This document shows, one piece after another, positions 8,323-48,310 of a DNA stretch of 64,000 nt; position 1 is the first letter of the stretch; every line of letters starts with the position of its first letter. This DNA comes from Alphaproteobacteria bacterium (GTDB lineage Bacteria; Pseudomonadota; Alphaproteobacteria; JAAXGF01). Position numbers and translations under genes: made by a program. The notes beneath the pieces were generated by a model. The model was not told the origin of the DNA, ran no database searches, and saw nothing but the letters and a program-made list of their open reading frames with translations. The DNA lies in contig CAUVXB020000002.1 of the NCBI GenBank assembly GCA_963555825.3, forward strand, positions 2,336,001-2,400,000. The letters are read 5' to 3'.

Positions 8323-8338
8323 TGAGAAGTCCGGGATG

Positions 8339-8927
8339 AACGGGTGCTGGCCTTCTACAACGACCGGGGCACAGCCGAGCAGCACATCAAGAAGGGCAAG
8401 TATGCGCTCAAATGGACGCGGCTCTCCTGCATGCGCTTCGCGGCAAACGCCGCTCGTCTCCGCCTTCACGGACTTGCCTACAATCTGGCGAACTTCCTGC
8501 GGACGCTGGCGACGCCCGAGGAGATCGAGCGCTGGTCGCTCACCAGCCTCCACGAACGGCTGATCAAGACCGGCGCCCGGTTGGTGCGCCATGGCCGCTA
8601 CGCCGCGTTCCAGATGGCCGAGGCCTTGCTGCCACGGGCAGTCTTCGCAGGTCTCCACGACCTGATCATTGGACTGCGCGATCCGCCGGCTGGAGCATTG
8701 TCCGCATGATCGAAACCGCGTCCAGAGCGGCGGCACGCACTGATGGTGACGGGAGAGGTGCGACCGGAACATGGCAACATCATGCTCCTCGCGGGCCCTG
8801 GACGGCGTTGGCGCGCTTTCCGACCCCGGCACGGACTATACAACAGGCTGCACGGGCGAATCTCCGCTTGATAATCGCTTTCGTCAGTGGCACGATCACC
8901 GAAGGGAATGCAAATGGGGAATCCTGG
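8339..8927 (+). pseudogene. IS1380-family remnant (transposase 3' end plus right terminus)
   Basis: FYNDRGTAEQHIK...LAYNLANFLR matches the C-terminus of 15899..17257; end TGGGGAATCCTGG resembles the IS1380 IRs in this window. Confidence 0.85.
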
Positions 8928-9002
8928 CTGACATGACTCACCGCGAATCCGAAACTCGGGCTTGCAAGAAATCAGTCGTTGGACAAAGGGAGGACATACC
9001 TG

Positions 9003-10190: not shown

Positions 10191-10259
10191 TGCGTGCCTA
10201 TCCGCTTTACGCATACACACACTAGGGGTAGATTGTGTGCGTAAAATGGCGGGTCAAAC

Positions 10260-10286
10260 TCGGATTTCTCACCGGATTTCTCACCG
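10260..10286. repeat. Tandem 12-mer (C/T)CGGATTTCTCA x2 followed by an AT-rich tract
   Basis: Direct reading; same core as the MITE TIR at 34850. Confidence 0.7.
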
Positions 10287-10374
10287 AAGAATAGTGTGGA
10301 GTCTGATTATCTATTGTAAACAAACAGTTATATAAATTTTCGGGAAGCGACAAAAATACAGGGTGTTTTTCCGT

Positions 10375-11322
10375 TCAGGGCCGTTTTTCGTCCGGCGGCG
10401 GGAGGGTTTGCACGGTTTCGGCGAGCCATTGCAAGGCGCCCCGCGTCGCCGTCCAGTTTTCCCTGTTTTGCAACACATAGATGACCGCCTCGTCGGGTGA
10501 GCCCAGCGTGTAGTGGTCGTCCTGATGTTCGGGGATCGGCATGGCGCCGGTCAACAGAGCGGGGACATGGGGATTGCGCTTCCAGGCGGCAGCCAGGGCG
10601 GTGCGGGCATCGGCCTCATCGCCCTTGCGCAAAGCCAGCAGAGTCTTGGCGTAGGCCCATTCGGCGAACACATCATCGTCATAGGCGGCGAGCAGTTCCT
10701 CCAGGGCGCCGTGATCGCCGGTGGCGAGCAGCCAGGACGTCAGGACATGGCGCAGACCCTGATTGTCGTTGGGGTTGAGGCGCAGCATATCCCGGTAATG
10801 GCCGATGGCCGCAGCGCGCTCGCCCGCCGCCCACAGGCATTTGGCGAGACCGGCGCGGGCGCGCATGTAAGGGCGGGTCTCCAGAAGGCCCCAGAAGTGG
10901 CCGGCATCGCGCTCGAAGGCCTGCGGCCCAAGCGCCCGCTCCCCGGCGGCGGCGGCGGCCTCATAATGGCGCCGCGCCTCGACGAGGGTCTTCGCCGCCT
11001 CTTCCGCCAGCATCACATGAGCGTCGGCGCAGAGTTCGGAGATATCCAGCGCCCGTTTGGCCAGTGCGACCCGTTCGCGTTTGGCGCCCGCGTCCCAGGC
11101 TTTGTACATGAGTTCCTGGGCCTGCCAAAGCGCCGCGTCATCACCGTCGCTTCCGTCAAAGCCGGAGGACAGCCCGCCGGCGAGCTTGGCCATCACCCCC
11201 TCCAGAGCCCGACGGTCGGGCAAAGGCGGCGCGGGCTCGGACACAGGCTCGACGGCCGGCTTTTTCCTGGCGGTGGGCGCGGGCTTTCTCTTGTTGTTGC
11301 GGCGCTTCTTGCTGACCGGCAT
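10375..11322 (-). CDS. TPR-like helical repeat protein
   Basis: FWGLLETRPYMRAR and LNPNDNQGLR motifs of a widespread TPR-like family; Ala-rich helical repeats. Confidence 0.75.
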   Translation of the reverse strand: MPVSKKRRNNKRKPAPTARKKPAVEPVSEPAPPLPDRRALEGVMAKLAGGLSSGFDGSDGDDAALWQAQELMYKAWDAGAKRERVALAKRALDISELCADAHVMLAEEAAKTLVEARRHYEAAAAAGERALGPQAFERDAGHFWGLLETRPYMRARAGLAKCLWAAGERAAAIGHYRDMLRLNPNDNQGLRHVLTSWLLATGDHGALEELLAAYDDDVFAEWAYAKTLLALRKGDEADARTALAAAWKRNPHVPALLTGAMPIPEHQDDHYTLGSPDEAVIYVLQNRENWTATRGALQWLAETVQTLPPPDEKRP

Positions 11323-11457
11323 GGAGACCTCGCGTGGCGTTCACAGGAGGGTGCCAGCCTAGCGGAAACCGGGGCTCAACGCTTGTGTTCTTCTTCGATG
11401 CCCCACGCAATACTCTATGATGGATCGCGTGATATCCATGTCTTGAGGGGGAACTTC

Positions 11458-11958
11458 ATGCGCTTTGCGGATTACGGCAAACGGGTGGTGTTCGCCGCCT
11501 TCGACGGCGGCGAGATCACGTCGGACGCCGGTGTCCTGTTACTGCGCGAGCGGCCGCGCCGGATACGCCTGTTCGAACGCATGGCGGGCTGTTTCACCGA
11601 TCACCGGGATCGAGAACGCCTAACCCATACCCTTCCCGCCCTGTTGGCTCAACGGGTTTGCGGGATGGCGCTCGGCTATGAAGACATCATCGACCACGAC
11701 ACGCTCCGTTTCGACCCGGCCCTGAAATTGCTGGCCTCACCGGGAACCGAATATCCCGGGACCCCGGCTCCGCTGGCCGGCAAGTCAACGCTGAGCCGGC
11801 TGGAACAATCCTGGGAAACCGGCAACCGCCGCTATCACCAGATGGTCCCCAATCTCAAGAGCCTCTCCAACCTGTTCGTCGCGCTGTTCCTCGACGCCTG
11901 CGACACGCCGCCCGCGCGCATCACCCTCGATATCGACGCCACCGACGTGGAGACCCAT
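11458..11958 (+). pseudogene. IS1380-family transposase N-terminal remnant
   Basis: FDGGEITSDAGVLLL, GYEDIIDHDTLRFDP, TLDIDAT motifs; breaks at ETH. Confidence 0.85.
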
Positions 11959-24913: not shown

Positions 24914-26093
24914 GTGTCCTGATCGATAAATTGATATGATTATGTCTCTATTTGTTTTTAGGAGGCGCGATTGATGGCGAGAGTGGCGGTGACGATCTCT
25001 TTGAGCGATGACGAGCGCGCCGAATTGGAGGCGCTGTCTCGTCGTCGCAAGACGTCGCAGGGGCTTGCGCGGCGGGCTCGGATCGTCTTGGCGGCGGCGG
25101 AAGGGTTGGAGAACAAGGAGATCGCCGTTCGTCTCGAGGCGAGCGCGGACACCGTGGGCAAGTGGCGTCGCCGCTATGCGGCGGAGGGCCTCGACGGTCT
25201 GTACGACGAACCCCGCCCCGGCGCGCCGCGTCAAATCGGCGATGACGCCATCGCGGAAGCGGTCCGGCTGACGCTGGAAGAGACGCCGCCGGACGCGACC
25301 CATTGGAGCCTTCGCTCGATGGCGCGGGCGAGCGGCCACGCGCCCTCGACCATTCATCGCATCTGGCGGGCCTTCGGCTTGCAGCCGCATCGCTCGGAGA
25401 CCTTCAAGCTGTCGAGCGATCCCTTCTTCGTGGAGAAGGTCCGCGACATCGTCGGTCTGTATTTGGCGCCGCCGGATCGTGCCCTGGTTCTCTGTGTCGA
25501 CGAAAAGAGCCAGATCCAGGCCCTGGACCGTTCCCAGCCCCTCTTGCCGATGCGCCCCGGGCAGGCGGAGCGGCGCAGCCACGACTACAAGCGCCACGGC
25601 ACGACCTCTCTCTTCGCGGCCCTCGACATCGCCACGGGAGAGATCATCGGCAAATGTTTCCCGCGCCATCGGGCCCGAGAGTTCCGCAAATTCCTCGACC
25701 TCGTCGAGGCGACACGTCCCTGCTGATCTCGACATCCACATCGTCATGGACAACTACGGGACCCACAAGACCAAGGCGATCCGCGACTGGTTCGCCAAAC
25801 GGCCGCGCTGGCAGGCCCATTTCACACCCACCAGCGCCTCCTGGCTGAACCAGGTCGAGCGCTGGTTCGGGCTGCTGACCGACAAGCAGATCAGGCGCGG
25901 CGTCCATCGCTCCACCAAGGAGTTGGAGCGCACCATCCTCGACTACATCGACACGACAAACCAGAACCCCAAACCCTTCAAATGGACCAAATCCGCCGAT
26001 GACATCCTCGGCGCCATCCAGCGCTTCTGCCTCCGAACAATCGAAATCGCTGAACAGCAGGCGAAAATCATGCGAACTTCGGAATCGGGACAC
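24914..26093 (+). mobile_element. IS630-family element, first of a tandem pair; transposase frameshifted near 25712
   Basis: TA-flanked; one extra base (GCGACACGT vs GCGAACGT) relative to the neighbouring copy. Confidence 0.93.
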
Positions 26094-26095
26094 TA

Positions 26096-27274
26096 GTGTC
26101 CTGATCGATAAATTGATATGATTATGTCTCTATTTGTTTTTAGGAGGCGCGATTGATGGCGAGAGTGGCGGTGACGATCTCTTTGAGCGATGACGAGCGC
26201 GCCGAATTGGAGGCGCTGTCTCGTCGTCGCAAGACGTCGCAGGGGCTTGCGCGGCGGGCTCGGATCGTCTTGGCGGCGGCGGAAGGGTTGGAGAACAAGG
26301 AGATCGCCGTTCGTCTCGAGGCGAGCGCGGACACCGTGGGCAAGTGGCGTCGCCGCTATGCGGCGGAGGGCCTCGACGGTCTGTACGACGAACCCCGCCC
26401 CGGCGCGCCGCGTCAAATCGGCGATGACGCCATCGCGGAAGCGGTCCGGCTGACGCTGGAAGAGACGCCGCCGGACGCGACCCATTGGAGCCTTCGCTCG
26501 ATGGCGCGGGCGAGCGGCCACGCGCCCTCGACCATTCATCGCATCTGGCGGGCCTTCGGCTTGCAGCCGCATCGCTCGGAGACCTTCAAGCTGTCGAGCG
26601 ATCCCTTCTTCGTGGAGAAGGTCCGCGACATCGTCGGTCTGTATTTGGCGCCGCCGGATCGTGCCCTGGTTCTCTGTGTCGACGAAAAGAGCCAGATCCA
26701 GGCCCTGGACCGTTCCCAGCCCCTCTTGCCGATGCGCCCCGGGCAGGCGGAGCGGCGCAGCCACGACTACAAGCGCCACGGCACGACCTCTCTCTTCGCG
26801 GCCCTCGACATCGCCACGGGAGAGATCATCGGCAAATGTTTCCCGCGCCATCGGGCCCGAGAGTTCCGCAAATTCCTCGACCTCGTCGAGGCGAACGTCC
26901 CTGCTGATCTCGACATCCACATCGTCATGGACAACTACGGGACCCACAAGACCAAGGCGATCCGCGACTGGTTCGCCAAACGGCCGCGCTGGCAGGCCCA
27001 TTTCACACCCACCAGCGCCTCCTGGCTGAACCAGGTCGAGCGCTGGTTCGGGCTGCTGACCGACAAGCAGATCAGGCGCGGCGTCCATCGCTCCACCAAG
27101 GAGTTGGAGCGCACCATCCTCGACTACATCGACACGACAAACCAGAACCCCAAACCCTTCAAATGGACCAAATCCGCCGATGACATCCTCGGCGCCATCC
27201 AGCGCTTCTGCCTCCGAACAATCGAAATCGCTGAACAGCAGGCGAAAATCATGCGAACTTCGGAATCGGGACAC
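26096..27274 (+). mobile_element. IS630-family element, second of the tandem pair; intact transposase 26153..27277
   Basis: [26 protein letters not shown]; shares the TA at 26094-26095. Confidence 0.95.
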
Positions 27275-27288
27275 TAGTTGGCTGTAGG

Positions 27289-28708
27289 TGTATCGCACCC
27301 GGTTCCTTGGACACAAGTTTGTCTCATGCGGCGGGCCTGAGTGACATCGCGGTGTGCCACGCCTGACGAGCTTGAGCGGGGCTCAGGTAGCCGTTCTTCT
27401 CCACGATCCACTGGGCATTGTACTGTTCGACGAACCCGCGGACGGCGTTCCGCAGCTCCGCGATGTTGCGGTAGATGCGGCCATGGATGATCTGTTCCTT
27501 GAGCGTGCGATTGAACCTCTCGGCGACGCCGTTGGTCTGGGGCTGTTCGACGAAGGCGTAGGACGGCTGGATGCCCCAGAACTTGATCTGGTTGGTGAAG
27601 TGGTCCGACAGATACTGGGAGCCGTGATCCATCCGCAAGGCCAGCCCCCGCGCCGCACCGGCGGAGGTCGAGGCATACAGCCTCGCAAGCCCCATGGAGA
27701 TCGGCTGAAGGGCGGCGAAGCGGTCGCCTCGCTTGCACACATGCCAGCCGACGCACTCGGCGTTCCAATGCTCGATGGCGGTGAATATCCAGCCCCAGCC
27801 GTCGTCCACCGTGAACACCCGAACGCCGTCCGTGCCCCACATGAGGTTGGGGGCATGGGTGATGATCTCACCGACATGGGGATTTCCGCCACGGCGGCGG
27901 CAGCGATGGGGCGAGAGCAGGTTGTTCTCGCGCATCACCCGGAGCCCCCGCTTGCGGGAAACACGGATGCCACGACAGACCCGAAGCCGAGCCCAGACCT
28001 TGCGGTGTCCCTCGCCCTCCCAGGGGGATGCCTCCAGGTCGGCCTCGATGGCCACCAGCAGAGCCTCGTCCGAGATCGAGGGCTTCGGTCCCCGGCGCTT
28101 TGCTGGTGGGCGCTCAGCGGTGGCCTGCTGCCGGGATTTCATGGCGTAGAACGAGGAACGGGCAAAACCCCAGGCCGCACAGACCCGCTGGAGGCCGTAG
28201 GCCAAACCCGTGCCGGGAGAGGTGGCGGCACTCATCGCCGCGACCTCCGCCGCCCCAAAGGGCCGGACGTCTCCGTCTTGGCCTCCAGCAGTTCCACCTG
28301 CATGATCAACTCCCCGATCCGCTTCATGGCGATGTCCAGTTCCGCCTTCACCGGATCGCCCTTGCGTTCCTTGAGCGAGGCATCGATCCCGGCGATCGCC
28401 TTCTCACGCCACTGCTCGAGCCGGAAAATCTCCACGCCCAACTGCCGCGACAAAAGTTCCACCGGCTCGCCACGCAAAAGCCGCAGGGCAACCTCACGCT
28501 TGCGCGTCACCGTCCACCGCTGGCCAAGTCCCAGCGGGCCTGCCGGCGAAACCTGGCCCGGGGAAAACGTGGACGAGCCAAGCTCGCCCTCGTTTACCAC
28601 AGGCCCATCAACAGCAACTTTGTTCTCAAAATTGTCGGTCATGTTCCGGTCCTCCTTGGACACTTCGATTAAGCCAATTCTGTGTCCAAGGAAATCGGGT
28701 CCGACTCA
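27289..28708 (-). mobile_element. IS3-family element (type B), complete; orfA 28232..28663, orfB 27324..28235
   Basis: TG...CA IRs sharing TTCCTTGGACAC; WGTD, DHGSQY, AERFNRTLK motifs. Confidence 0.93.
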
Positions 28709-34486: not shown

Positions 34487-35662
34487 ATGGCGGAGCACAC
34501 GTCGACCTTCGGGTCATCGGCGTATGGCGGCGGCGGCTGGTCGGAGCGGATCCGGGCGCATCGCGAAGAGATCGGCGATCTGTGGACCGATTGCGGCATC
34601 GACAACGAATGGTCGCGCCTGCGCGCCGTCCTGCTGCACCGGCCGGGCGACGAGTTGGCGGCGTCGGCCGACGAGCATGACGCGATGGCCGAGGCGTTCC
34701 GCGCCAACGGCGTCACCGTGCATTACGTCGAACCCGATGGCCCGCCCTCGCCGAACCAGATGTTCTGCGCCGATCTGATGTTCATGACGCCCGAGGGCGT
34801 GATCGTCGCGCGCCCCGCGTCGACCGTGCGCGCCGGCGAGGAGCGTTAGCCCGGATTTCTCACCATGGACAGGCGCGTCATCGCGCCGCGCGGTCGCTGA
34901 TCCGCCAGGAGAAGGCCGCCGAGCGTGGCCTGGGCCACGGTCAAGGCCTTCGACGCCGCGGGCGGCCCGCCCGGCGCGACCCGAAGGGCGGCGGATCTCG
35001 GACGACAGGCGGCGTCAAAGCGTTTGCCCGATGCGACAGCATCGCGCCGCACGCTTTTCCTAGCCTGTCGTCCGATATCCGCCGTGCCGCACCTGTCCAT
35101 GGTGAGAATTCCGGGCTAGGTGGCGCGCCGCATCGCCGAGCGGGGCATGCCGATCCTGCGCACGCTGCGCGGGCGCGCCACCTTCGAGGGCGCGGATGCC
35201 ATGTGGCTCGACGCCGAGACGGTCATCATCGGACGCGGCCTGCGCACCAATTCCGAGGCGATCGACCAGATCACCGGGCTGCTCGCCGAGATGGGCGTCG
35301 CCACCATCGCCGTCGACATGCCGTTCGGCACGATGCATCTGATGGGCATGCTGCGCGTCGCCGATAAGGACCTGGCGATCGCCTGGCCGCGCCGCACGCC
35401 GCACGCCGCGGTGCTCGCGCTGCGCGAGCGCGGCTACCGGGTCGCCTTCCTGCCCGAGACCGACGACGACGCCATGAACCGGGCGCTCAACACCGTCACG
35501 CTGGGGCTGCGCAAGATCTTGGTCAACGCCGGCTACGACGTCATCCAGGCGTTCTACGAAGGGCTCAGCATCGAGTGTGTCACGGTGCACGCGCGCGAAC
35601 TCGTCAAGGCGGCCGGCGGCTTCGGCTGCCTGGCCGGCGTGCTGCACCGCGACCCGGTCTAG
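34487..35662 (+). pseudogene. Amidinotransferase/dimethylargininase-family gene interrupted by a MITE at an in-frame TAG
   Basis: LLHRPG, NQMFCAD, RAGEER, FEGAD, MHLMG, GGFGCL motifs across the two halves. Confidence 0.88.
34850..35115. mobile_element. 266-bp MITE with 24-bp TIRs
   Basis: CCCGGA(T/A)TTCTCACCATGGACAGG at both ends; TTAG/CTAG flanks; internal hairpins such as CGTGGCCTGGGCCACG. Confidence 0.88.
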
Positions 35663-35695: not shown

Positions 35696-35768
35696 AATGG
35701 GGTCAGACACCATTATTGGAATCATAAGTCATTCATAATAACATCTATTAATGGTGTCTGACCCCATT
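35696..35768. repeat. REP-like doublet: perfect 20-bp inverted repeat around an AT-rich spacer
   Basis: AATGGGGTCAGACACCATTA ... TAATGGTGTCTGACCCCATT between convergent genes. Confidence 0.85.
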
Positions 35769-35830: not shown

Positions 35831-36802
35831 CTAGTCGATCTCGCCGAGGGCGCGCAGCACCTTGAGCTGCAGGGCGTGCACCGCGTGCTCGGAGATGTAG
35901 CTGTGCTCGTCGTCGACGATGAAGCGCCCCTGGCGGTAGCCACGGCTGCGCAGGCCCTTCTGGACGTTTTCGACGAGCGGAAAGTCCTCGCGGCGCACGA
36001 CATCGACGAAGTCGATGACCTCCTGTTCCTGTTCGGTCGGTGCATCGCCCTCGAGGTACCACTCGATCGTCTGCACGGTGCGTTCCGGTGCCACCGGCCG
36101 GTTGTGGAACACGGTCAGCTTGCCGCCCGGGTAGAACTCGAACGACATCGTCGGGAAGACGCACCAGCCGCCGAACTCGTCGCCGCGCGGACTCGCGCCG
36201 GGCTCATGGCTATAACACTGCTTGTCGCCCTGGTCGCCGCAATTGTGGTGGTGATAGGCGTCGTGCACCTCGATGCGGTAATTGGTCATGTCGAGCGCCT
36301 GGCGCGACAGGCTCGGATGGCCGATCGGGCAGTGGTAGCACTCGGAATAGTTCTCCATCACGGTCTTCCAGTTGGCGGCGACCTGATAGGTCTTGCGGTA
36401 GGCGAGCTTCAGCGCCTCGGGCGCGGCGCAGAACGAGCGGAACTCCTGCTCCATGCCGCCGGTCTGCTGGCACATCGGCACCGCGTCCGCATCGAAATTG
36501 AAGAAGATGAAGCCGAGGAACGCCTCGGTCCGCACCGGCCGTTGGCTACCGCCGGCGTCCTCGACACCGATCAGATCACCGTCATCACCGCGCGTGATGA
36601 CGACGCCGCGATCGCCGATTTCGCGGACCAGCGCGTCATCCGGTCCGCCGAGCTGGCAGACGTGCCCGGCGTAGAGCCACGAGCGATACATGATGGCATC
36701 GAGCTCGCGGGCGTAGATCGCGGGATCGTGGTAGTAGCGGCCGGGCAGCGTATAGGCGTGCGCCGTATCGCGGTCGATCCTCGCAAGTGCATCTTGGACC
36801 AT
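35831..36802 (-). CDS. Ring-hydroxylating oxygenase alpha-subunit homologue lacking the Rieske cluster motif
   Basis: TLPGRYY, ANWKTVMENYSECYHC..GHP, EDFPLVENVQKGL present; CxH...CxxH absent. Confidence 0.85.
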   Translation of the reverse strand: MVQDALARIDRDTAHAYTLPGRYYHDPAIYARELDAIMYRSWLYAGHVCQLGGPDDALVREIGDRGVVITRGDDGDLIGVEDAGGSQRPVRTEAFLGFIFFNFDADAVPMCQQTGGMEQEFRSFCAAPEALKLAYRKTYQVAANWKTVMENYSECYHCPIGHPSLSRQALDMTNYRIEVHDAYHHHNCGDQGDKQCYSHEPGASPRGDEFGGWCVFPTMSFEFYPGGKLTVFHNRPVAPERTVQTIEWYLEGDAPTEQEQEVIDFVDVVRREDFPLVENVQKGLRSRGYRQGRFIVDDEHSYISEHAVHALQLKVLRALGEID

Positions 36803-36857
36803 GACAGCCCCTCCCTCTCGGGCGTCGATAGCAACAGAATAACCCATTTTCGACGCG

Positions 36858-37688
36858 CTAACCATCGCGCGGCGGGCCCGGTGGGACCGGCCCGCTGGGC
36901 GCCAGCGCGCCATCGGCGTCGTGCATCTCCTCGCCTGCGAGCGACGGGCAGAACACGCTCAACAGGTGGAGCTCGGTGACCGCGTGCATGCTGTGCCTGT
37001 CTTCGGGCCCGACGCAGTACATGGTGCCGGGCTCGAGCGGCCAGCGCTCACCGGTCGTCAGGTCCGACACGTCGCCGTGGCCGTCGAGGATGTAGTTGGC
37101 TTCCCAATGGTGCTTGTACCAAAGCTCGTTGCGATTGCCGGCGGCCAGGATGACGTCGCAGATCGTGACGCCGATGCCGTCCTCGGCGAGCAGCATGCGC
37201 ACGGTGCGCGCCGAGCCGCCGGCGACGATCTTCTCGCGGCCCGCCGCGCGCAGCTCGGCGACGCTCTTGACGAACATCCGCGCGCGGCCTTTGGGGACCG
37301 GGCCGGTCGGCGGGTACGAACCGTCCGCGTCGTGGCGCTCGTCACCCGTGATCGACGGGCTGAAGACGCTGACGATATGAAGCGTGTCGGTCACCGTGAC
37401 ACGGTGGCGATCGGTCGGCCCGACGGTGTAGAGCGAGCCGGGCCCGAGCGGCCAGCGCTCGCCCGTGGTCAGGTCCTCGACCGTACCGGCGCCCGAGACG
37501 ATGTAGTTGGGCTCCCAGTGGTTCTTGTACCAGAGCGTCACCTCGGCGCCCGCCTCGATGCCGACGTCGTGCAACGAGAACCCGAGACCGTCGGCCGCGG
37601 TAAGCAGCCGCGCGCTGCGTGCGTGGCCGTCGAGCAGCCTCAGCTCCCGGCCCTCTCGCCTGAGTTCATCGAGCGTCCTCACGAACAT
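36858..37688 (-). CDS. ectC: Tandem double-domain ectoine-synthase-like cupin
   Basis: Two repeats of WYK(N/H)HWE.NYI..G.G.V.DLTTGERWPL.PG..Y.VGP.DRH...SVF.P. Confidence 0.85.
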   Translation of the reverse strand: MFVRTLDELRREGRELRLLDGHARSARLLTAADGLGFSLHDVGIEAGAEVTLWYKNHWEPNYIVSGAGTVEDLTTGERWPLGPGSLYTVGPTDRHRVTVTDTLHIVSVFSPSITGDERHDADGSYPPTGPVPKGRARMFVKSVAELRAAGREKIVAGGSARTVRMLLAEDGIGVTICDVILAAGNRNELWYKHHWEANYILDGHGDVSDLTTGERWPLEPGTMYCVGPEDRHSMHAVTELHLLSVFCPSLAGEEMHDADGALAPSGPVPPGPPRDG

Positions 37689-39031
37689 CGTTCACCGGCC
37701 GTGAATGCCGCCTCCATCTCGCGGCGAAAGACGACGGTGTCGTCCGCCTCGTCGATCTCGACGTCGGTCCAGCGTAGCACGTCACCCGCAGCAATCGCGT
37801 TGTTCAGCGTGACGCCGTGGGCGAGGCCGAGCGGCAGCGCGCCCTGGCTTATCGAATCGGCGGCCGGCATCAGGCGGCCGTAGACCGTGTAGCCGCCTTC
37901 GCCGTCGAGCGTCTCGCCGATCGCGAGGTCGCGTTTCGCCGTTGCCGCGACGTCGGCGTTGAAGCCGCGCGCACAGCCGATCGGCTCGTTGTACAAGGCC
38001 GCGGTGGCGACGCTGACGCCGAGCTCGAGGCCGATCAGGTGATAGGGCTTGTACATCGCAGCGAATTCACCCGAGTCGTCGGTCGCCAGGCCGTATTCGG
38101 CGAAGCAGCGGCGCACGTAGTCGTCGGGCGCGGCGAAGGTCACGTAGACGCCCCAACGCAGATCGTGGGCGATGGCACCGCCGTCGCGCTCGAGGCAGGA
38201 GACGACCTCGACCGTGCCGCGATGGTCGAGCGTGCCGCCGGCCTCGGCCGGCCGACAGACATTGGCCAGATCGTCGGCGCTCGACGGCGGAAAGCGCAGG
38301 CCGCCGGCCTGCGGAGCGAGATCGCAGGCGTTGGCCACCGCGGCCATCTCGATCGCCGACTTGGTGCCGTCGAGGAAGGAATTGAACATTTGCGGGTTCA
38401 TGCCGCCGGCGGCGGCCTGTTCCGCGCTCAGGCCGTAATACCCCCACACCGTCTCGGGTGTCGAGGCGTGGTATTCGGGCAGATATTTGGTGCCCTTGCC
38501 GGCGCAGACCACCTCGAAGCCGGTGGCGCGCGCCCAATCGACCATCTCGGCGATCAACGCGGGTTGGTCGCCGTAGGCCATGGTGTAGACGACGCCGGCT
38601 TGCTCGGCGCGGCGCGCCAGCAGCGGCCCGGCGAGCACGTCGCCCTCGACGGTCACCATGACGACGTCGACGCCGTGGCGGAAGGCGGCCAGCGCGTGGC
38701 GGATGCCGGCCGCCGGACTGCCGGTCGATTCGACCAGCACGTCGAGGCCGTCGGCGGCGATCAGCGTCTCGGCGTCGTCGGTGATGTGCGCGGCGCCGGT
38801 CGTGAGCGCGACGTCGAGGTCGGGCGCGGCATAGGCCATCTCGGGCCAGCCAGCGCGGCGGCAGGCGTCGCGCGCGCGCTCGGGCGCGATATCGGCGATG
38901 CCGAGCACGCGCAGGCCCGGCGTGCGCCGCGCCTGGGCCAGGAACATGGTGGCGAACTTGCCGGCGCCGACGACGCCGACGCGTAGCGGCCGCCCCGCTT
39001 CCTCGCGCTTGCCGAGTTGGTCGTACAGCAT
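37679..39031 (-). CDS. NAD(P)-dependent oxidoreductase, homoserine-dehydrogenase-like with C-terminal SAF domain
   Basis: GAGKFA Rossmann motif, AYGDQP, FLDGTKSAIEM, AKRDL..GETLDGEGGY. Confidence 0.88.
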   Translation of the reverse strand: MLYDQLGKREEAGRPLRVGVVGAGKFATMFLAQARRTPGLRVLGIADIAPERARDACRRAGWPEMAYAAPDLDVALTTGAAHITDDAETLIAADGLDVLVESTGSPAAGIRHALAAFRHGVDVVMVTVEGDVLAGPLLARRAEQAGVVYTMAYGDQPALIAEMVDWARATGFEVVCAGKGTKYLPEYHASTPETVWGYYGLSAEQAAAGGMNPQMFNSFLDGTKSAIEMAAVANACDLAPQAGGLRFPPSSADDLANVCRPAEAGGTLDHRGTVEVVSCLERDGGAIAHDLRWGVYVTFAAPDDYVRRCFAEYGLATDDSGEFAAMYKPYHLIGLELGVSVATAALYNEPIGCARGFNADVAATAKRDLAIGETLDGEGGYTVYGRLMPAADSISQGALPLGLAHGVTLNNAIAAGDVLRWTDVEIDEADDTVVFRREMEAAFTAGERCS

Positions 39032-39035
39032 GTGC

Positions 39036-40250
39036 CTAGACCACGACCAGGTTGCGCGGCAGCGTCGACAGCACTTCGAGGCCCGTGTCGGTCATCAGGA
39101 AGGTCTCGATATAGGCCGCGCCCGAGCCGCCCGGCCAGTCTTCCCAGACGTCGAACTGGTTCTCCAGGTTGAACACCATGCCCGGCTCGAGCGGCCGGTC
39201 GTCGGGCGCATCGGGCGTCGGGTGGGTGCGCTGTACGCCGACCCAATCGGGCGGCGCCGCGATGCCCAGCGTATAGCCGCCGTTGTACCACATGGTGGGT
39301 CTGAGGCCGGTCGCGTCGACGTAGTCGTCGGCCACCTGGTGCACCTTGAACATGGTGTCGCCCGGCCCGATGGCCGCGACGATGGCGTCGATGCAGCCGG
39401 CCGAGGCGTCCATCAGCGTGACCCAGCGCGGGTCCGGCTCGCCCAGCGAGAAGGTCCGGTTGAGGTTGACGTGATAGCGGTGCAGCGCGGCGCAGAAGTC
39501 GATGAACACGAGCTCGCCCTGGCGCACCTGGCGGAGCGTCGGCGCGCTGTGGTGGGTGCCGGCGCGCGGTCCCGAGCCGATCATCGTGCGGATGCCCGGA
39601 TAGCCGCCGCCGGCCGCCATCAGCGAGCCCATGATGACGCCCTCGAGCGCGGTCTCGGTGACGCCGGGGCGGATCGCGTCGCGCGCCGCGGCCATCGCTG
39701 CATCGGCCATGGCGGCGGCGCGGCGCACCACCTCGATCTCGAGCGGCGACTTGATCAGGCGAACTTCCTCGACCAGGAACGAGGCGTCGACGACCGCCAT
39801 GGCGGCGCCTTCGAGCGCACCGCGCAGGGCATCCATCACATCGGCGTGGGGCGCATGGCCCCAGCGCTGCAACGCGACCCGCTTGTCGGCCAGGCCGCGG
39901 CCGGCGAGCTCGCTGGCGATCAGCGCGATGCATTGGTCGACGCCGACGCGCTCGAACCAGACGATCTCGCCGATCTCCGGCGTCGTCGAGACGATCGTCG
40001 TGTGGCTGACGCTGTCGAAGAACACCGTCGCGTCGGCATCGGCGCGGACCAGCACCCCGGTCAGGCTGCGCAGGTGATACCAGATCATGTCGTAGCCGGT
40101 CAGATAGGTCAGGTCGGCCGGCAGAGTGACGAAGATGGCGTCGATGTCGGCGGCGGCCAGCGCACGACGCAGCTTGGCGCGCCGCGTAGCGTATTCCTCG
40201 GCCGGGAAGGCCTGGGGCCAATCGATCTGGTCCCGCAGATACTGCTGCAT
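39036..40250 (-). CDS. M24-family hydrolase, ectoine hydrolase DoeA/EutD-like
   Basis: YLTGYD, RLIKSPLEI, RYH, GYTLG..PPDW, LEPGMVF. Confidence 0.82.
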   Translation of the reverse strand: MQQYLRDQIDWPQAFPAEEYATRRAKLRRALAAADIDAIFVTLPADLTYLTGYDMIWYHLRSLTGVLVRADADATVFFDSVSHTTIVSTTPEIGEIVWFERVGVDQCIALIASELAGRGLADKRVALQRWGHAPHADVMDALRGALEGAAMAVVDASFLVEEVRLIKSPLEIEVVRRAAAMADAAMAAARDAIRPGVTETALEGVIMGSLMAAGGGYPGIRTMIGSGPRAGTHHSAPTLRQVRQGELVFIDFCAALHRYHVNLNRTFSLGEPDPRWVTLMDASAGCIDAIVAAIGPGDTMFKVHQVADDYVDATGLRPTMWYNGGYTLGIAAPPDWVGVQRTHPTPDAPDDRPLEPGMVFNLENQFDVWEDWPGGSGAAYIETFLMTDTGLEVLSTLPRNLVVV

Positions 40251-40262
40251 TGTGTCTCCCCC

Positions 40263-41048
40263 CTACTGGTCCGCCCCCGCCGTCAGGCAATCGTCGGCCA
40301 GGCATTCGATCGGCGTGAAGTCGCGGTGGGCGATCCACTCGGGCCGCTTGAAGCGGCGGATGTGGTTGTCGACATGGCACAGGCTGATGTAGACGATGAC
40401 CCGGTCCCACGGCGACATGTTGCTGCCCGAGCCGTGCACGATATTGCCGTGGAAGAACAGCGCCGAGCCCGGCGCGCCCTTGGCCGCGATCATGCCGTTC
40501 CGTTCGACCAGCGCGCCGATCGTTGCGTCGTCGATCGTCCACAGCGGATAGCTCGTCGTCGCGGTGTCGTGGCCGGCCTCGAGACAGCCGCCCTTGTGCG
40601 AGCCCGGAATGAACAGCAGCGGCGCGTTGAACTCGTTGATTTCGCTCAGGAACACAGCGACGTTCATCGCCCTTGGCTCGGGCATCAGATCGTCGCGCGA
40701 CCAAGTGCCGTAGTCCTGGTGCCACTGCCAGACGTCGCCGTTGAACGCCGCCTTGCCGTTGATCTTGAACTGATGCACGTAGACGTCGCCGCCGAGCAAC
40801 CGCATGATCGGCGCGACCAATCGGGGATGGCGTGACAGCTTGCCATAGACGTCGTTGTAGGTATGCGCCGCGAAGTTGGTGCGCACCACGCCGCCGCGCT
40901 GCTCGCGCACGTTCTCCTTGCGCTCAACGGCGAACAGCGCCGGCACCTCGCCGAGCAGCACCGCGACCTCGGCTGCATCGAACAGATCGGGCATAAACAG
41001 ATAGCCGTCGGTCTCGAACCGCGCGACCTGATCGTCGGAAAGCTGCAT
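40263..41048 (-). CDS. Fe(II)/2-oxoglutarate dioxygenase, PhyH/EctD-like
   Basis: HQFKINGK, WQWHQDYGTW..DDLMP, IPGSHK, HGSGSNMSP. Confidence 0.88.
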   Translation of the reverse strand: MQLSDDQVARFETDGYLFMPDLFDAAEVAVLLGEVPALFAVERKENVREQRGGVVRTNFAAHTYNDVYGKLSRHPRLVAPIMRLLGGDVYVHQFKINGKAAFNGDVWQWHQDYGTWSRDDLMPEPRAMNVAVFLSEINEFNAPLLFIPGSHKGGCLEAGHDTATTSYPLWTIDDATIGALVERNGMIAAKGAPGSALFFHGNIVHGSGSNMSPWDRVIVYISLCHVDNHIRRFKRPEWIAHRDFTPIECLADDCLTAGADQ

Positions 41049-41125
41049 GACATGCCCCTCGCCGCGTTTCTACCGCGCCAGTCTAACCGAACGCGCCCGC
41101 ACCTACCAACCGGCGCGGGCGGTCA

Positions 41126-41338
41126 TCACAGGTCTTCGGGCGTGAGACCGGTGTGGCGGGCGATGCGCGCAAGCATCTTGGGGCCGATCTCTTCACGGTC
41201 GTGAAAGGCGAATACGTAGTTCGGCCAGCCTTCGCGCTCGAGCACTCGATGATATCCGCTCTGCCGCTTGGTTGTCCAACCGACACGCGCGAGCGCGGCG
41301 AGGACACGCCGGGCGCGTGTCGACCGCCACTGGCTCAT
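41126..41338 (-). CDS. hicA: HicA-family toxin
   Basis: GW...RQSGYH...HDREEIGPKMLARIARHTGL. Confidence 0.85.
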   Translation of the reverse strand: MSQWRSTRARRVLAALARVGWTTKRQSGYHRVLEREGWPNYVFAFHDREEIGPKMLARIARHTGLTPEDL

Positions 41339-41535
41339 GCAGCGACGAAGAGCTCGCCAAGCGCGGGAATTGTTTCGCCGTGTTCGAGCCGGTCGGCAAG
41401 GACGCGCAGGGCGAGCGCCTCGACCTTAGCCTGCGCCTCCTGCTGCGTGGCGCCGTAGGCCATCACGCCGGAGAGCTCAGAGATTTCGGCGACCCACCGG
41501 CCATCCGCCTCCTGCTCGAATTCGATCCGCAGCAC
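41335..41535 (-). CDS. hicB: Short HicB-family antitoxin
   Basis: EADGRWVAEI.EL.GVMAYGATQQEA; 4-bp overlap with hicA. Confidence 0.85.
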   Translation of the reverse strand: MLRIEFEQEADGRWVAEISELSGVMAYGATQQEAQAKVEALALRVLADRLEHGETIPALGELFVAA

Positions 41536-41636
41536 GTCGGTACCTCTGCGTGTCGTGTAAACCTACGTTTCGCCGACGATCGGTCGGCTTTGCACGGCCA
41601 GTGTAACACGCGGACGCATCCACGGCATCGGTCCTC

Positions 41637-46656: not shown

Positions 46657-48310
46657 GGGTGCGAGTCTCGCATGGCAGTGATGTCTGCGGCTTGGTTCGT
46701 TGAGTTCAGGCAGCGATTGCCATGGCTGCTGCACGTGGACTGATGTTGTCGTTGGCCGGTGTGTCGGTTGCGCTGATCAGGGCCTTCCATGCCCGCTCGA
46801 AGCGGCCGGATTTGATCAGGGCGCGGAAGGTCAGAACAGCCTGTCCGCCGACGATCCGCCAGCGCATGCCGGAGCGCTTCATGCGCTGTGTCACCAGGGT
46901 CTTGTTGGCAGCTTCGACCACGCCTGAGCCGATGGCGATGCCCTCTTCCTTCAGGGCGTGGTAGCGCATGCGATGGCGATGCTTGCGGAAGAAGGCGAGT
47001 TCCCGCTCGGTCTCGGCCCGGTCCGGCGCAGCGGCGGCATCGCGAAGGTGGCGCAGCGCCCGGATCACCTTGGCGACGCCACGGGGATCGTGACGGAGGA
47101 TCTCGCGGTACTTCTCGAACCAGCCGGGCGCCACGGCATGGTCGGACGCGGTTTGCAGATGTTCGCAAGCATGCCAGAAGTCGATCACCTCGGTTTCGGG
47201 CGACAGGGTCTCCAGGAAGGTCCAGTTGTCGGCGGCGCCATCGGCGATAGCGACGATCCCGATCTCGGGGCGTGCTCGCCTGATGTGTGCGACTTCGCTT
47301 GCAAGCTGCGCCTTCAGCGTGAGCTTGCCGCTCTCCGGCATGCGGCCGAGATAGAGGGTCTTCAGGCGCTTGCCCTCGGCGTCGTGGAAGGAGACCGTGC
47401 CGCAGGCAGCCTCGCGCCAGGAGGCCTTGGCGCGACCGTCCTCGCCGGGTCTCAGCGGCACCATGACGCCGTCGAGGGAGACCGAGGCGGTGGTCGCGTC
47501 CTGCGGTATGCCCTCGGCCTCACGGATGCTGCCCAGCGTCTCCGGGCCGAGGCTCTCCCAGCATTCGTGCATGCTCAGGGTCAGGCGCTGCAGGGTGCTC
47601 ACCGACGGCGTCATGGCGCCGGTCTTCGCAAAGAACGCCGCCGCTTCCCGGGCCGTGCAGTGACCCATCATCAGCAGACCGAGCTCGGCCGCCGGCCGCG
47701 TCAGGTAATCGTCGACGAGGCCCAGGCTCTCGTCGACCGGCACCGGCGATGCCCCGCTCGCGCCGCTGCGGTAACGCGCTCGCCGGTAGGTCACCGGACC
47801 GAGCGAGGTCATGATCGTCTTCGGCGTCACCGCGACCCGGAACCAGCTCTGCCCGTCCCGCTCGATCCGGGAAGCGCCATCGTCCCGGTTCTCGATGACG
47901 GCGCCCATGACATCGCGAGCGAACTCGTTCGTGGCCTCACGCACCCGCAACTCGACCTCCTCGGGCGCCTCGGGGCGCGGCTCGGAACGAAGCTCCTCGC
48001 GACACAGTGCGAGCACCCGGGCGGCCGCCTCGACGACCCGAGGAGGCAGGCCGGAAAGATCGATGGACGAAGGCGCCGGAGGCGGGGATACTGCCATGGG
48101 AATGCTCCCGATGTTGGGTTTCGAGACACGGCATCGTACCGCTTCTGGCGGTGCGGAGCGTTCCCACCTTCCCCTGCTCGACCCTGCCGTCGTGACAAAA
48201 TCCTGCCTTGGAGCGGCCCATTGTCACGAATAGCCGATTTCGGCCGTTCGTCTCGACACAAAAAACGCACTAAATCAATGACTTAGATTTTCCATACCAG
48301 ACCCACACCC
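46657..48310 (-). mobile_element. ISKra4-like element; transposase 46706..48097
   Basis: GGGTG(C/T)G(A/G)GTCT IRs; 8-bp TSD CTCGAGAA; SLDG, ADGA, DFWHACEHL, GSGVVEAA motifs. Confidence 0.9.

What the first reader, a model, noticed from the sequence alone, without database searches (positions are those of the whole stretch)
35831..41048. Candidate undescribed ectoine-like (cyclic amidine) conversion operon without ectAB
Seen: five tightly linked co-oriented genes encoding an EctD-like 2OG dioxygenase, an M24 hydrolase with the DoeA/EutD-type PPDW motif, a SAF-domain oxidoreductase, a double EctC and an oxygenase alpha homologue. Known: biosynthesis needs ectABC, catabolism uses doeABCD/eutABCDE, and the EctD signature is FxWHSDFETWHxEDG(M/L)P. 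Here the dioxygenase has WQWHQDYGTWSRDDLMP, and ectA, ectB, doeB and doeD are absent from the window. Inference: ring-closing, ring-opening, hydroxylating and redox enzymes act together on an ectoine analogue (for example ADPC, homoectoine or a proline/pipecolate-type osmolyte), possibly scavenged from a host or the environment.
Basis: partly seen in the sequence, partly recalled or inferred. Interest (0 to 1): 0.78.

Follow-up and report, generated by a model that had tools for sequence, protein, structure and literature searches.

The report
Mosaic operon around a fused orphan EctC
Five tightly packed enzyme genes, including a doubled ectoine-synthase-like protein, are real, but they look like a lineage-specific patchwork of older two-gene modules rather than a conserved pathway for an ectoine-like compound.

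Summary
The five co-oriented genes and both quoted motifs are present. Three corrections apply. The "EctD-like" dioxygenase is closer to free proline and leucine hydroxylases (H11, GriE) than to EctD. The oxygenase alpha homologue starts at 36790 and has lost the roughly 48 residues that carry the Rieske cluster ligands. The genome has DoeB and a better DoeA candidate on the other replicon.

Among 78 tandem-EctC loci of other species, none has the DRL oxidoreductase, and orthologous PhyH or M24 genes are missing. DRL orthologs lie beside sdhB in relatives without M24, EctC or the oxygenase, and M24 orthologs lie in unrelated contexts.

Two sub-modules do recur. PhyH-DRL is adjacent in 3 of 13 genomes. 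Tandem EctC has a Rieske-type oxygenase within 3 kb in 15 of 78 loci, against none in the 766 kb further out. The EctC halves keep the iron ligands but lack 3 of the 6 substrate-binding residues of true EctC.

Verdict: a real, probably expressed mosaic cluster for an unknown nitrogen-containing solute. An ectoine analogue is not shown. Interest is moderate.

The parts
40263..41048 (-). Fe(II)/2-oxoglutarate dioxygenase of the PhyH family, 261 aa. Closest solved relatives are the free-proline trans-3/4-hydroxylase H11 and the leucine 5-hydroxylase GriE; EctD is more distant.
   Evidence: PF05721 E 9.6e-31. TIGR02408 EctD scores 177.6 bits against a cut-off of 336.5. PDB matches: 7e01/7dzz E 4e-67, GriE 5nch E 6e-56, EctD 4mhr E 9e-38. 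Entry titles come (model pLDDT 77, Z 26-27 for GriE and H11, 24.6 for EctD). An ortholog lies next to DRL in 3 of 13 relatives.
39036..40250 (-). M24 'pita-bread' hydrolase with a creatinase/prolidase N-domain, 404 aa. DoeA-like but far below the DoeA cut-offs. It is one of 18 M24/DoeA-like matches in this genome.
   Evidence: PF00557 E 1e-34 and PF01321 E 5.8e-13. NF038259 scores 148 bits against 575, and TIGR02993 scores 114 against 613. DoeA 6twj E 2.7e-27 with PPDW aligned. It ranks seventh of 18 own-genome TIGR02993 matches. Orthologs of 45% identity or more occur in 4 of 400 class genomes, all in other contexts.
37679..39031 (-). DRL-family (DXR-like) NAD(P) oxidoreductase with a C-terminal SAF domain, 450 aa.
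   Evidence: PF21135 E 2.5e-60, SAF E 7e-7, Rossmann domains. Brucella DRL structures 3upl/3upy E 3e-53. The genome also has canonical DXR. Strong orthologs occur in 13 of 40 relatives, beside sdhB in 7 loci.
36858..37688 (-). Fused tandem EctC-type cupin, 276 aa, made of two EctC domains that are 55% identical to each other. It is an orphan EctC, because the genome has no ectA or ectB.
   Evidence: PF06339 matched twice, 236.5 bits. Halves are 55% identical. Both halves keep Glu57, Tyr84 and His92 but have Ala for Trp21, His or Cys for Asn38 and Val for Thr40 (PMC6344544 passages). 113 of the 120 best homologs are 272-285 aa.
35831..36790 (-). GbcA/CntA-like ring-hydroxylating oxygenase alpha subunit, 319 aa, that has lost the roughly 48-residue segment holding the Rieske [2Fe-2S] ligands. 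The catalytic-domain iron ligands are kept.
   Evidence: PF00848 only, no PF00355. Alignments A1 and A3 show an in-frame gap where Rieske-bearing homologs have CxH...CxxH; H153, H158 and D269 are invariant. Start at 36790 behind GGGAGGGG. The same deletion is seen in clusters that are 85-87% identical (P0241-P0243, 56 member sequences).
35696..35768 (.). 25-nt inverted repeat (92% complementary, 23-nt loop) in the AT-rich spacer between the convergent oxygenase gene and the DDAH-like gene. Possibly a two-way terminator or a repeat element.
   Evidence: Inverted repeat I5 and the sequence itself. Six full-length matches in the genome. Function not tested.
41049..41636 (-). 588-nt intergenic region upstream of the first gene, the likely promoter region of the block.
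   Evidence: One sigma-70-like match at 41278-41249, but 0.7 are expected by chance, so this is position only and not evidence. RNA-library contigs run across 40810-41300.

Best explanation
The block is a lineage-specific, operon-like mosaic. It is not a conserved five-step pathway, and it is neither canonical ectoine synthesis nor canonical ectoine breakdown.

It joins three parts.

1. An older pair. A free-amino-acid-type Fe/2OG hydroxylase (like proline hydroxylase H11 or leucine hydroxylase GriE) sits with a DRL-family NAD(P) dehydrogenase. In relatives this pair lies downstream of sdhCDAB and is followed by an aldehyde or alcohol dehydrogenase. The inferred chemistry is C-H to alcohol to carbonyl on a free amino or imino acid.

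2. A fused tandem orphan EctC cupin followed by a GbcA/CntA-like oxygenase alpha subunit. This pairing recurs at superfamily level in several lineages. The inferred chemistry is metal-dependent ring closure or opening on a substrate other than N-gamma-acetyl-DABA, coupled to oxidative chemistry such as demethylation.

3. A DoeA-like M24 hydrolase paralogue inserted between PhyH and DRL. The inferred chemistry is amide or amidine hydrolysis.

Together they most likely convert one or more imported, possibly host-derived, nitrogen-containing solutes.

Shown: gene families, synteny, residue patterns and the loss of the Rieske ligands. Inferred: every substrate and every reaction step.
For: - Families and sub-threshold scores.
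- PhyH is closest to H11 and GriE.
- PhyH-DRL is adjacent in G006, G013 and G015, which belong to three families. DRL is followed by an aldehyde dehydrogenase in G006 and G015 and by a zinc alcohol dehydrogenase in G013.
- In 7 of 14 DRL loci sdhB is within 3 kb, as in the window.
- None of the 14 DRL loci has M24 or EctC.
- DRL is found in none of the 78 tandem-EctC loci.
- Rieske-type alpha genes lie within 3 kb of tandem EctC in 15 of 78 loci, and within 300 nt in 10. There are none in the outer 766 kb of the same loci.
- Seven species share the order PhyH, then Rieske oxygenase, then EctC, with a convergent TauD.
- The EctC halves keep the iron ligands but not Trp21, Asn38 or Thr40.
- Better DoeA and DoeB candidates lie elsewhere in the genome.
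- The whole stretch is held nearly unchanged by 14 runs of 5 studies.
- RNA-library contigs from 2 studies match four of the genes and bridge the DRL/EctC and PhyH/M24 junctions. This is a weak hint only, because DNA can be present in such libraries.
Against: - The tight spacing (12 nt, 4 nt, a 10-nt overlap, 67 nt) would also fit one dedicated pathway.
- In two same-family genomes tandem EctC lies near M24 hydrolases, deacylases and PhyH-type genes (G005: 2 M24, 2 CE4 deacetylases, 2 PhyH, 1 FMO; G001: M24, M20, an ABC transporter). A hydrolase, oxygenase and EctC theme could therefore be one functional unit.
- Insertion versus loss is judged by parsimony only. The relatives are smaller, fragmented metagenome genomes that may have lost genes.
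- The neighbour census used HMMs seeded from the inner zones. The loci are also related to each other: 7 of the 15 Rieske cases are one clade.
- No substrate was tested.
Confidence: 0.5

Rival explanations
1. One reading: the five enzymes form one dedicated pathway that hydroxylates, opens, oxidises and re-closes an ectoine-like cyclic amidine or a proline/pipecolate-type osmolyte taken from the host or the environment.
For: - Operon-like packing.
- RNA-library contigs bridge two of the gene junctions.
- PPDW is shared with DoeA.
- EctC-type, PhyH-type and M24 genes recur together at superfamily level in G005 and G001.
- The order PhyH, Rieske oxygenase, EctC is shared by 7 species.
- Runs labelled sponge metagenome hold the stretch.
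Against: - No ortholog-level co-conservation was found.
- DRL never accompanies tandem EctC: 0 of 78 loci.
- The recurring PhyH and Rieske partners elsewhere are at most 25% identical to the window's genes, except one at 39%.
- PhyH groups with proline and leucine hydroxylases.
- Three of the 6 ADABA-binding residues are missing in both EctC halves.
- The oxygenase has no Rieske centre.
- No transporter or regulator lies in the block.
Confidence: 0.22
2. Chance neighbours in a genome rich in insertion elements and undergoing rearrangement. The genes serve unrelated pathways, and the Rieske-less oxygenase is a decaying remnant.
For: - Each gene has different neighbours in other genomes.
- Transposases lie at 24971-28235 and 46706-48097.
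- A 272-nt MITE has broken the next gene downstream.
- The genome holds 18 M24 matches and at least 6 oxygenase alpha matches, so paralogues are common.
- The Rieske ligands are lost.
Against: - The gaps between genes are a few bases, with one overlap.
- The Rieske-less form is kept without stops or frameshifts in clusters that are 85-87% identical (56 member sequences).
- The catalytic iron ligands stay invariant.
- RNA-library contigs of all four runs laid match it.
- Rieske-type genes are strongly enriched next to tandem EctC.
Confidence: 0.18
3. Canonical ectoine or hydroxyectoine turnover with diverged enzymes: EctD hydroxylates, DoeA opens the ring and EctC closes it again.
For: The best-scoring NCBIfam names are EctD, DoeA and EctC. 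Automatic source names say 'ectoine hydroxylase' and 'ectoine synthase'.
Against: - All scores are far below the curated cut-offs.
- Only 8 of the 15 fixed positions of the EctD signature are met (against passages of PMC5924519).
- There is no ectA, and no ectB above its cut-off.
- DoeB and the best DoeA candidate lie on the other replicon.
- The EctC substrate residues are changed.
Confidence: 0.05

Closest known systems
Solitary (orphan) EctC-type proteins (Czech et al. 2018, PMC5924519; Czech et al. 2019, PMC6344544; passages read)
   Same: An EctC-fold cupin encoded outside any ectABC cluster, in a genome without ectA or ectB. The iron ligands Glu57, Tyr84 and His92 are conserved. The function is unknown, and those papers call it an open question.
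   Different: Here two EctC domains are fused in one 276-aa chain, and this form is widespread (113 of the 120 best homologs are 272-285 aa). Trp21, which the 2019 paper reports as conserved even in orphans, is absent from both halves, and Asn38 and Thr40 are replaced. My two text searches found no description of a fused form.
Ectoine hydroxylase EctD
   Same: Same PhyH-type fold (Z 24.6). The His-x-Asp plus distal His iron triad is present (H110, D112, H205 invariant in alignment A2).
   Different: It scores 177.6 bits against a cut-off of 336.5. It meets the 17-residue signature at only 8 of 15 fixed positions. By sequence it is clearly closer to proline trans-3/4-hydroxylase H11 (E 4e-67) and GriE (E 6e-56) than to EctD (E 9e-38).
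Free amino-acid hydroxylases H11 (L-proline trans-3/4-hydroxylase, PDB 7dzz and others) and GriE (L-leucine 5-hydroxylase, PDB 5nch)
   Same: They are the best solved relatives over the full length. The sizes are similar at about 261-268 aa. In griselimycin biosynthesis GriE is followed by a dehydrogenase (recalled, not checked here), which resembles the PhyH-DRL pairing.
   Different: Substrate not tested. The partner here is a DRL-family dehydrogenase, not a zinc alcohol dehydrogenase. The family is very large and strongly conserved (7999 of 8000 scored candidates match, many at 65-70% identity), which suggests a common metabolic role rather than antibiotic biosynthesis.
Ectoine hydrolase DoeA/EutD (M24; PDB 6twj, 6twk)
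   Same: The best solved relative of the M24 protein. The PPDW motif aligns. The two-domain creatinase-like architecture is the same.
   Different: It scores 114 and 148 bits against cut-offs of 613 and 575. There is no adjacent DoeB. Six other M24 genes in the genome score higher for DoeA.
DRL (DXR-like, type II DXP reductoisomerase) of Brucella abortus (PDB 3upl, 3upy)
   Same: Same family and length, aligned over residues 5-423. It has PF21135 plus the SAF domain.
   Different: The genome has canonical DXR, so a role in the MEP pathway is not needed. Its conserved neighbours are a PhyH hydroxylase, aldehyde or alcohol dehydrogenases, or D-glutamate-cyclase-like genes.
GbcA/CntA/Stc2-type Rieske oxygenase alpha subunits (glycine betaine, carnitine and proline betaine oxygenases)
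   Same: The catalytic domain and its iron ligands are present. The best NCBIfam match is GbcA. Homologs are named choline or carnitine monooxygenase by their sources.
   Different: The Rieske [2Fe-2S] ligand segment is deleted in frame. The protein therefore cannot receive electrons the usual way.

Membership tests
Bona fide ectoine synthase EctC | Matches the EctC family model | tested here: met
   PF06339 at 236.5 bits with two stretches; NF009806 at 243.7 bits against a cut-off of 128.
Bona fide ectoine synthase EctC | Iron ligands Glu57, Tyr84, His92 (P. lautus numbering) | tested here: met
   Present in both halves in the HMMER alignments to 5onn. The residue list comes from PMC6344544 passages.
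Bona fide ectoine synthase EctC | N-gamma-ADABA-binding residues Trp21, Arg25, Asn38, Thr40, Tyr52, Glu57 | tested here: not met
   Arg25, Tyr52 and Glu57 are kept. Trp21 is Ala in both halves, Asn38 is His in half 1 and Cys in half 2, and Thr40 is Val in both. The Trp21 position lies just outside the printed alignment and was read by register.
Bona fide ectoine synthase EctC | Encoded with ectA and ectB | tested here: not met
   TIGR02406 gives no match in the 99.3%-complete genome. The best TIGR02407 match is 168.8 bits against a cut-off of 552.
Ectoine hydroxylase EctD | Score at or above the TIGR02408 cut-off | tested here: not met
   177.6 bits against 336.5.
Ectoine hydroxylase EctD | 17-residue signature F-x-W-H-S-D-F-E-T-W-H-x-E-D-G-M/L-P | tested here: not met
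   WQWHQDYGTWSRDDLMP matches 8 of the 15 fixed positions (sequence; signature from PMC5924519 passages).
Ectoine hydrolase DoeA/EutD | Score at or above the TIGR02993 or NF038259 cut-off | tested here: not met
   114 bits against 613, and 148 bits against 575.
Ectoine hydrolase DoeA/EutD | Partner deacetylase DoeB/EutE encoded alongside | tested here: not met
   The only DoeB-level match lies on the other replicon at C1:428684.
DRL / type II DXR | DRL catalytic domain and overall architecture | tested here: met
   PF21135 E 2.5e-60; 3upl/3upy E 3e-53 over residues 5-423.
DRL / type II DXR | Acts as the cell's DXP reductoisomerase | not testable with these tools
   Canonical DXR is present, so that role is not required. 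Activity is unknown.
Rieske non-haem iron oxygenase alpha subunit | Rieske [2Fe-2S] domain with CxH...CxxH | tested here: not met
   No PF00355 match. An in-frame gap covers the ligand segment in A1 and A3.
Rieske non-haem iron oxygenase alpha subunit | Catalytic domain with the mononuclear iron ligands | tested here: met
   PF00848 E 4e-31. H153, H158 and D269 are invariant in A3. That these are the iron ligands is recalled from the family's literature.
Free amino-acid hydroxylases of the GriE/H11 group | Closest full-length similarity to characterised members | tested here: met
   E 4e-67 for H11 and 6e-56 for GriE, against 9e-38 for EctD. Z is 26-27 over 245-249 residues.
Free amino-acid hydroxylases of the GriE/H11 group | Hydroxylates a free L-amino or imino acid | not testable with these tools
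   This needs an enzyme assay.

The most novel reading that the evidence does not exclude
Fused tandem EctC cupins, which are widespread in Alphaproteobacteria, Gammaproteobacteria, Binatia, Methylomirabilota and others, may be the signature enzyme of an undescribed family of pathways. Those pathways would pair a ring-closing or ring-opening cupin with interchangeable oxygenases (Rieske, PhyH, TauD, FMO, ABM) and amidohydrolases to process nitrogen-containing solutes such as methylated or cyclic amino-acid derivatives. In this probably sponge-associated bacterium, the pathway would have merged with a proline-hydroxylase/DRL module. It would also use a new kind of oxygenase alpha subunit that works without its own Rieske centre, either as a partner of a Rieske-bearing paralogue or as a non-redox enzyme.
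Probability: 0.2. Interest if true: 0.7.

Novelty: new variant of a known kind. Interest (0 to 1): 0.45.

Why it matters
The function of orphan EctC-type proteins is an acknowledged open question in the ectoine field (PMC5924519 and PMC6344544, passages read).

This work shows three things:
- A fused two-domain form is common.
- Its substrate pocket differs from that of true EctC.
- Its most consistent neighbours are oxygenases, above all Rieske-type ones.

That gives concrete candidates for biochemical tests. It also warns that automatic names such as "ectoine synthase" and "ectoine hydroxylase" on these genes do not indicate ectoine metabolism.

The recurrent, apparently maintained loss of the Rieske centre in oxygenase alpha subunits is a separate oddity worth following up.

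The five-gene "ectoine-analogue operon" itself should not be taken as a conserved system.

Tried and rejected
1. DRL as the cell's only DXR, which would make it a housekeeping bystander of the MEP pathway. Rejected, because PF02670 DXR is present at C1:1006100.

2. Earlier scan notes.

3. A text search for the PDB codes 7DZZ, 7E01, 7DT0 and 8H7T gave only irrelevant papers. The entry titles came from the fold search instead.

4. Promoter and terminator scan. One promoter-like site was found against 0.7 expected, and 6 terminator-like sites against 2.9 expected, two of them inside genes. This is no evidence either way.

5. M24 enrichment near tandem EctC. There are 3 loci within 3 kb against 2 further out, which is too few to interpret.

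6. RNA-library contigs. In the four runs laid, no contig lay on about 38505-40187 (most of M24 and the 5' part of DRL) or on 36822-37008.

I could therefore not fetch the contigs of the closest relatives: P0004 and P0129, which both list a 64,013-nt contig, and P0243, which lists a 992,129-nt contig. Genus-level conservation of the order remains untested.

8. Text searches found nothing on oxygenase alpha subunits without a Rieske domain (all 17 papers listed of the 19 that matched concern cytochrome bc1 or b6f) and nothing on fused or bicupin EctC. These were phrase searches of an open-access library only.

9. Loss of the M24 metal ligands (Asn where peptidases have the second Asp) was seen by eye only. 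It was not tested with an annotated alignment and is not used as evidence.

Full report
**1. What is in the sequence**

Between 35831 and 41048 there are five minus-strand open reading frames with coding-like third-position GC of 0.85-0.92.

| Gene | Coordinates | Pfam result |
|---|---|---|
| PhyH-type dioxygenase | 40263-41048 | PF05721 |
| M24 hydrolase | 39036-40250 | PF00557 with a creatinase-type N-domain |
| DRL-family oxidoreductase | 37679-39031 | PF21135 with a SAF domain |
| Tandem EctC | 36858-37688 | two full EctC domains |
| Oxygenase alpha homologue | 35831-36913 | ring-hydroxylating alpha catalytic domain only |

PPDW aligns with the PPDW of the solved ectoine hydrolase DoeA.
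- The genes are separated by 12 nt, 4 nt and a 10-nt overlap.
- The last gene most likely starts at ATG 36790, behind a GGGAGGGG ribosome-binding site. That leaves 67 nt after the EctC stop.
- Upstream lie a YkuD transpeptidase, a PaiB-like gene and sdhBADC.
- Downstream, on the other strand, lie a ChaC-like gene and a DDAH/amidinotransferase-like gene.
- The block contains no transporter or regulator.

**2. What each gene is**

*The dioxygenase.*
- It scores 177.6 bits on the EctD model against a cut-off of 336.5.
- It meets the EctD signature at 8 of 15 fixed positions (signature from passages of PMC5924519).
- Its best solved relatives are entries 7e01, 7dzz and 7dt0 (E 4e-67), then GriE leucine hydroxylase (E 6e-56). 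EctD follows at E 9e-38.
- A model built from a 25-sequence alignment (pLDDT 77) gave the entry titles. The first group is the "trans-3/4-proline-hydroxylase H11".
- It is therefore a member of the free-amino-acid hydroxylase group, with EctD as a more distant cousin.
- The family is very large. 7999 of 8000 scored candidates match, many at 65-70% identity, and sources name them variously "ectoine hydroxylase" or "proline hydroxylase".

*The M24 protein.*
- DoeA is its nearest solved relative (E 2.7e-27).
- It scores only 114 and 148 bits against DoeA cut-offs of 613 and 575.
- It ranks seventh among 18 DoeA-model matches in its own genome.

*The oxidoreductase.*
- It aligns over nearly its whole length with the Brucella DXR-like enzyme (E 3e-53).
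- The genome also has a canonical DXR.

*The tandem EctC.*
- Its two halves are 55% identical.
- Both halves keep the three iron ligands of P. lautus EctC.
- Both lack three of the six residues that bind N-gamma-acetyl-DABA. Trp21 is Ala in both, Asn38 is His in one half and Cys in the other, and Thr40 is Val in both (residue list from passages of PMC6344544).

*The oxygenase homologue.*
- In alignments with eight and sixteen relatives it has an in-frame gap of about 48 residues. The gap falls exactly where Rieske-bearing homologs carry CxH...CxxH.
- The catalytic-domain residues H153, H158 and D269 stay invariant.

**3. The rest of the genome**

The assembly is 6.04 Mb in two contigs and 99.3% complete.

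- ectA gives no match.
- The best ectB match is 169 bits against a cut-off of 552.
- A DoeB that just passes its cut-off lies at C1:428684, next to another M24 gene.
- The best DoeA candidate lies at C1:171561, at 540 bits against 613.
- Two more single-domain EctC genes lie on C1. Neither is beside ectA or ectB.

If the organism degrades ectoine at all, better candidates exist elsewhere in the genome.

**4.

*Anchored on tandem EctC.* A scan of species-representative genomes returned 78 distinct loci, most with 10 kb on each side.

| Window protein | Loci matched at tblastn E <= 1e-3, of 78 |
|---|---|
| PhyH | 2 (21-24% identity) |
| M24 | 5 (24-30% identity) |
| DRL | 0 |
| Oxygenase | 3 (one adjacent, 39-40% identity) |

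Clustering of all neighbours found no family present in more than 13 of the 78 loci.

*Anchored on DRL.*
- Strong orthologs (57-80% identity) occur in 13 of 40 relatives. Eight of these are among the 12 same-family genomes.
- I fetched 14 loci. sdhB is within 3 kb in 7 of them. The PhyH ortholog is next to DRL in 3 (G006, G013 and G015, which belong to three families).
- None has M24 or EctC. One has a distant, Rieske-bearing oxygenase 2 kb away, behind a LysR gene and a permease.
- In G006 and G015 the gene after DRL is an aldehyde dehydrogenase. In G013 it is a zinc alcohol dehydrogenase. In G021 and G023 a D-glutamate-cyclase-like gene precedes DRL.

*Anchored on M24.*
- Only 4 of 400 class genomes have a homolog at 45% identity or more.
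- Their neighbours differ from each other and from the window.

The five genes are therefore not co-conserved as orthologs. By parsimony, PhyH-DRL beside sdh is the older arrangement, and M24 and EctC-oxygenase are additions in this lineage. Loss in the smaller, fragmented relatives cannot be excluded.

**5. What does recur**

I built local profile HMMs from the neighbour clusters and from alignments A2 and A3. I then counted hits within 3 kb of tandem EctC (415 kb in all) against hits further out in the same loci (766 kb).

| Family | Loci with a hit within 3 kb, of 78 | Loci with a hit further out |
|---|---|---|
| Ring-hydroxylating alpha | 15 (10 within 300 nt) | 0 |
| TauD | 8 | 0 |
| PhyH | 10 | 7 |
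| ABM | 6 | 1 |
| FMO | 4 | 3 |
| M24 | 3 | 2 |

- Seven species (L008-L012, L079, L084) share the order PhyH, then Rieske oxygenase, then tandem EctC, with a convergent TauD.
- Other Rieske cases include gammaproteobacterial and Entotheonella genomes.
- These partner genes are only remote relatives of the window's, at 25% identity or less, except the L053 oxygenase at 39%.
- Within the window's family:
  - G005 has tandem EctC among two M24 genes, two CE4 deacetylases, two PhyH genes and an FMO.
  - G012 has it back to back with a PhyH gene.
  - G001 has it, frameshifted, near a split M24, an M20 amidohydrolase and an ABC transporter.

Caveats: the HMM seeds came from the inner zones, the loci are related to each other, and these superfamilies are common in such genomes. 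The Rieske enrichment is large enough to survive these caveats. The others are suggestive only.

**6. The Rieske-less oxygenase**

- Among the 120 best homologs, 113 carry both the Rieske and catalytic domains. Seven carry the catalytic domain only.
- Three of those seven are clusters 85-87% identical to the window protein, with 56 member sequences and the same gap boundaries.
- Further Rieske-less forms are an own-genome paralogue (C2:985272) and one in G012, which lies 1.3 kb from a complete Rieske oxygenase.
- Each Rieske-less group is closer to Rieske-bearing proteins than to the other Rieske-less groups. For example, the window protein is 69% identical to P0244 and 55% identical to P0270. 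This points to repeated loss.
- The open frame and the iron ligands are kept at 13-15% divergence, which argues against a fresh pseudogene.
- I found no paper on such subunits by phrase search.

**7. Population and expression**

- The 5.6-kb stretch is held at 92-99% of its sampled words by 14 runs of 5 studies. Some of these are labelled sponge metagenome.
- Contigs from four RNA libraries of two studies match the oxygenase gene, the EctC gene, parts of DRL, and PhyH. Single contigs bridge the DRL/EctC junction (37289-37739 and 37494-37742) and the PhyH/M24 junction (40186-40382).
- Such libraries can contain DNA, and contigs cannot show a single transcript. This is a weak hint of expression.

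**8. Verdict**

The block is non-canonical and may well process a host-derived nitrogen compound. However, it is not a conserved five-gene system, nothing ties it to a cyclic amidine, and DRL belongs with PhyH rather than with EctC.
- The best reading (confidence about 0.5) is a mosaic of a PhyH-DRL amino-acid oxidation pair, an EctC-oxygenase pair and an inserted M24 paralogue.
- The parts that are new relative to the papers I could read are the fused tandem form of orphan EctC, with its altered pocket and oxygenase neighbours, and the Rieske-less alpha subunits.
- No supplementary files of the cited papers were consulted. The EctC alignments of 582 proteins in the supplements of PMC5924519 and PMC6344544 might already contain fused forms.

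Noticed in passing
window 34502-35656 (+), insertion at 34847-35118: The DDAH/amidinotransferase-like gene convergent with the block is split by a 272-nt element with 39-nt terminal inverted repeats, which looks like a MITE. An intact ortholog in G001 aligns on both sides of the insertion, in the same frame. The genome holds 35 full-length copies at 85-100% identity.
   Followed up: yes
own genome C2:985272-986195 (L171), G012:C80 (L168/L204), and proteins P0241-P0243, P0270, P0278, P0281, P0286: Oxygenase alpha subunits with an in-frame loss of the Rieske ligand segment occur in several groups. Each group is closer to Rieske-bearing proteins than to the other Rieske-less groups, which suggests repeated loss. 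In G012 one lies 1.3 kb from a complete Rieske oxygenase and a LysR gene.
   Followed up: partly
L008-L012, L079, L084 (about positions 7700-11750 of each locus): Seven species share a conserved arrangement: PhyH-type dioxygenase, Rieske oxygenase and tandem EctC on one strand, with one or two convergent TauD-family dioxygenases. GFA (formaldehyde-activating), SDR and ABC-transporter genes lie nearby. This hints at oxidative demethylation chemistry.
   Followed up: partly
own genome C1:419857-437600 (L005, L200): A second island on the other replicon holds a solitary single-domain EctC, an M24 gene divergent from a DoeB that passes its cut-off, a luciferase-like monooxygenase and a GbcA-like Rieske oxygenase.
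   Followed up: partly
own genome, whole: The DoeA model finds 18 M24/creatinase-like matches, and the window oxygenase finds 6 alpha-subunit matches in the own genome (the window gene and 5 paralogues). This is a marked expansion of families used for breaking down nitrogen-containing osmolytes.
   Followed up: no
L103 (G006), L113 (G015), L112 (G013), L111 (G021), L109 (G023): DRL-family oxidoreductase orthologs have recurring partners. PhyH and DRL are followed by an aldehyde dehydrogenase in two families and by a zinc alcohol dehydrogenase in one. A D-glutamate-cyclase-like gene precedes DRL in two. This may be a small, uncharacterised amino-acid oxidation module.
   Followed up: partly
L076 (G001) 6176-7335 and 9336-10165: In this same-family metagenome genome, both the tandem EctC and a neighbouring M24 gene are split into two frames each. 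This could be real decay or assembly error.
   Followed up: no
window 24971-28235 and 46706-48097: Several transposase genes (DDE_3 twice, an rve integrase and a UPF0236 family member) flank the wider region. The same DDE_Tnp_1_4 fragment lies near both solitary EctC genes on C1.
   Followed up: no
window 35696-35768: A 25-nt inverted repeat in an AT-rich spacer lies between the two convergent genes. It has 6 full-length matches in the genome.
   Followed up: partly
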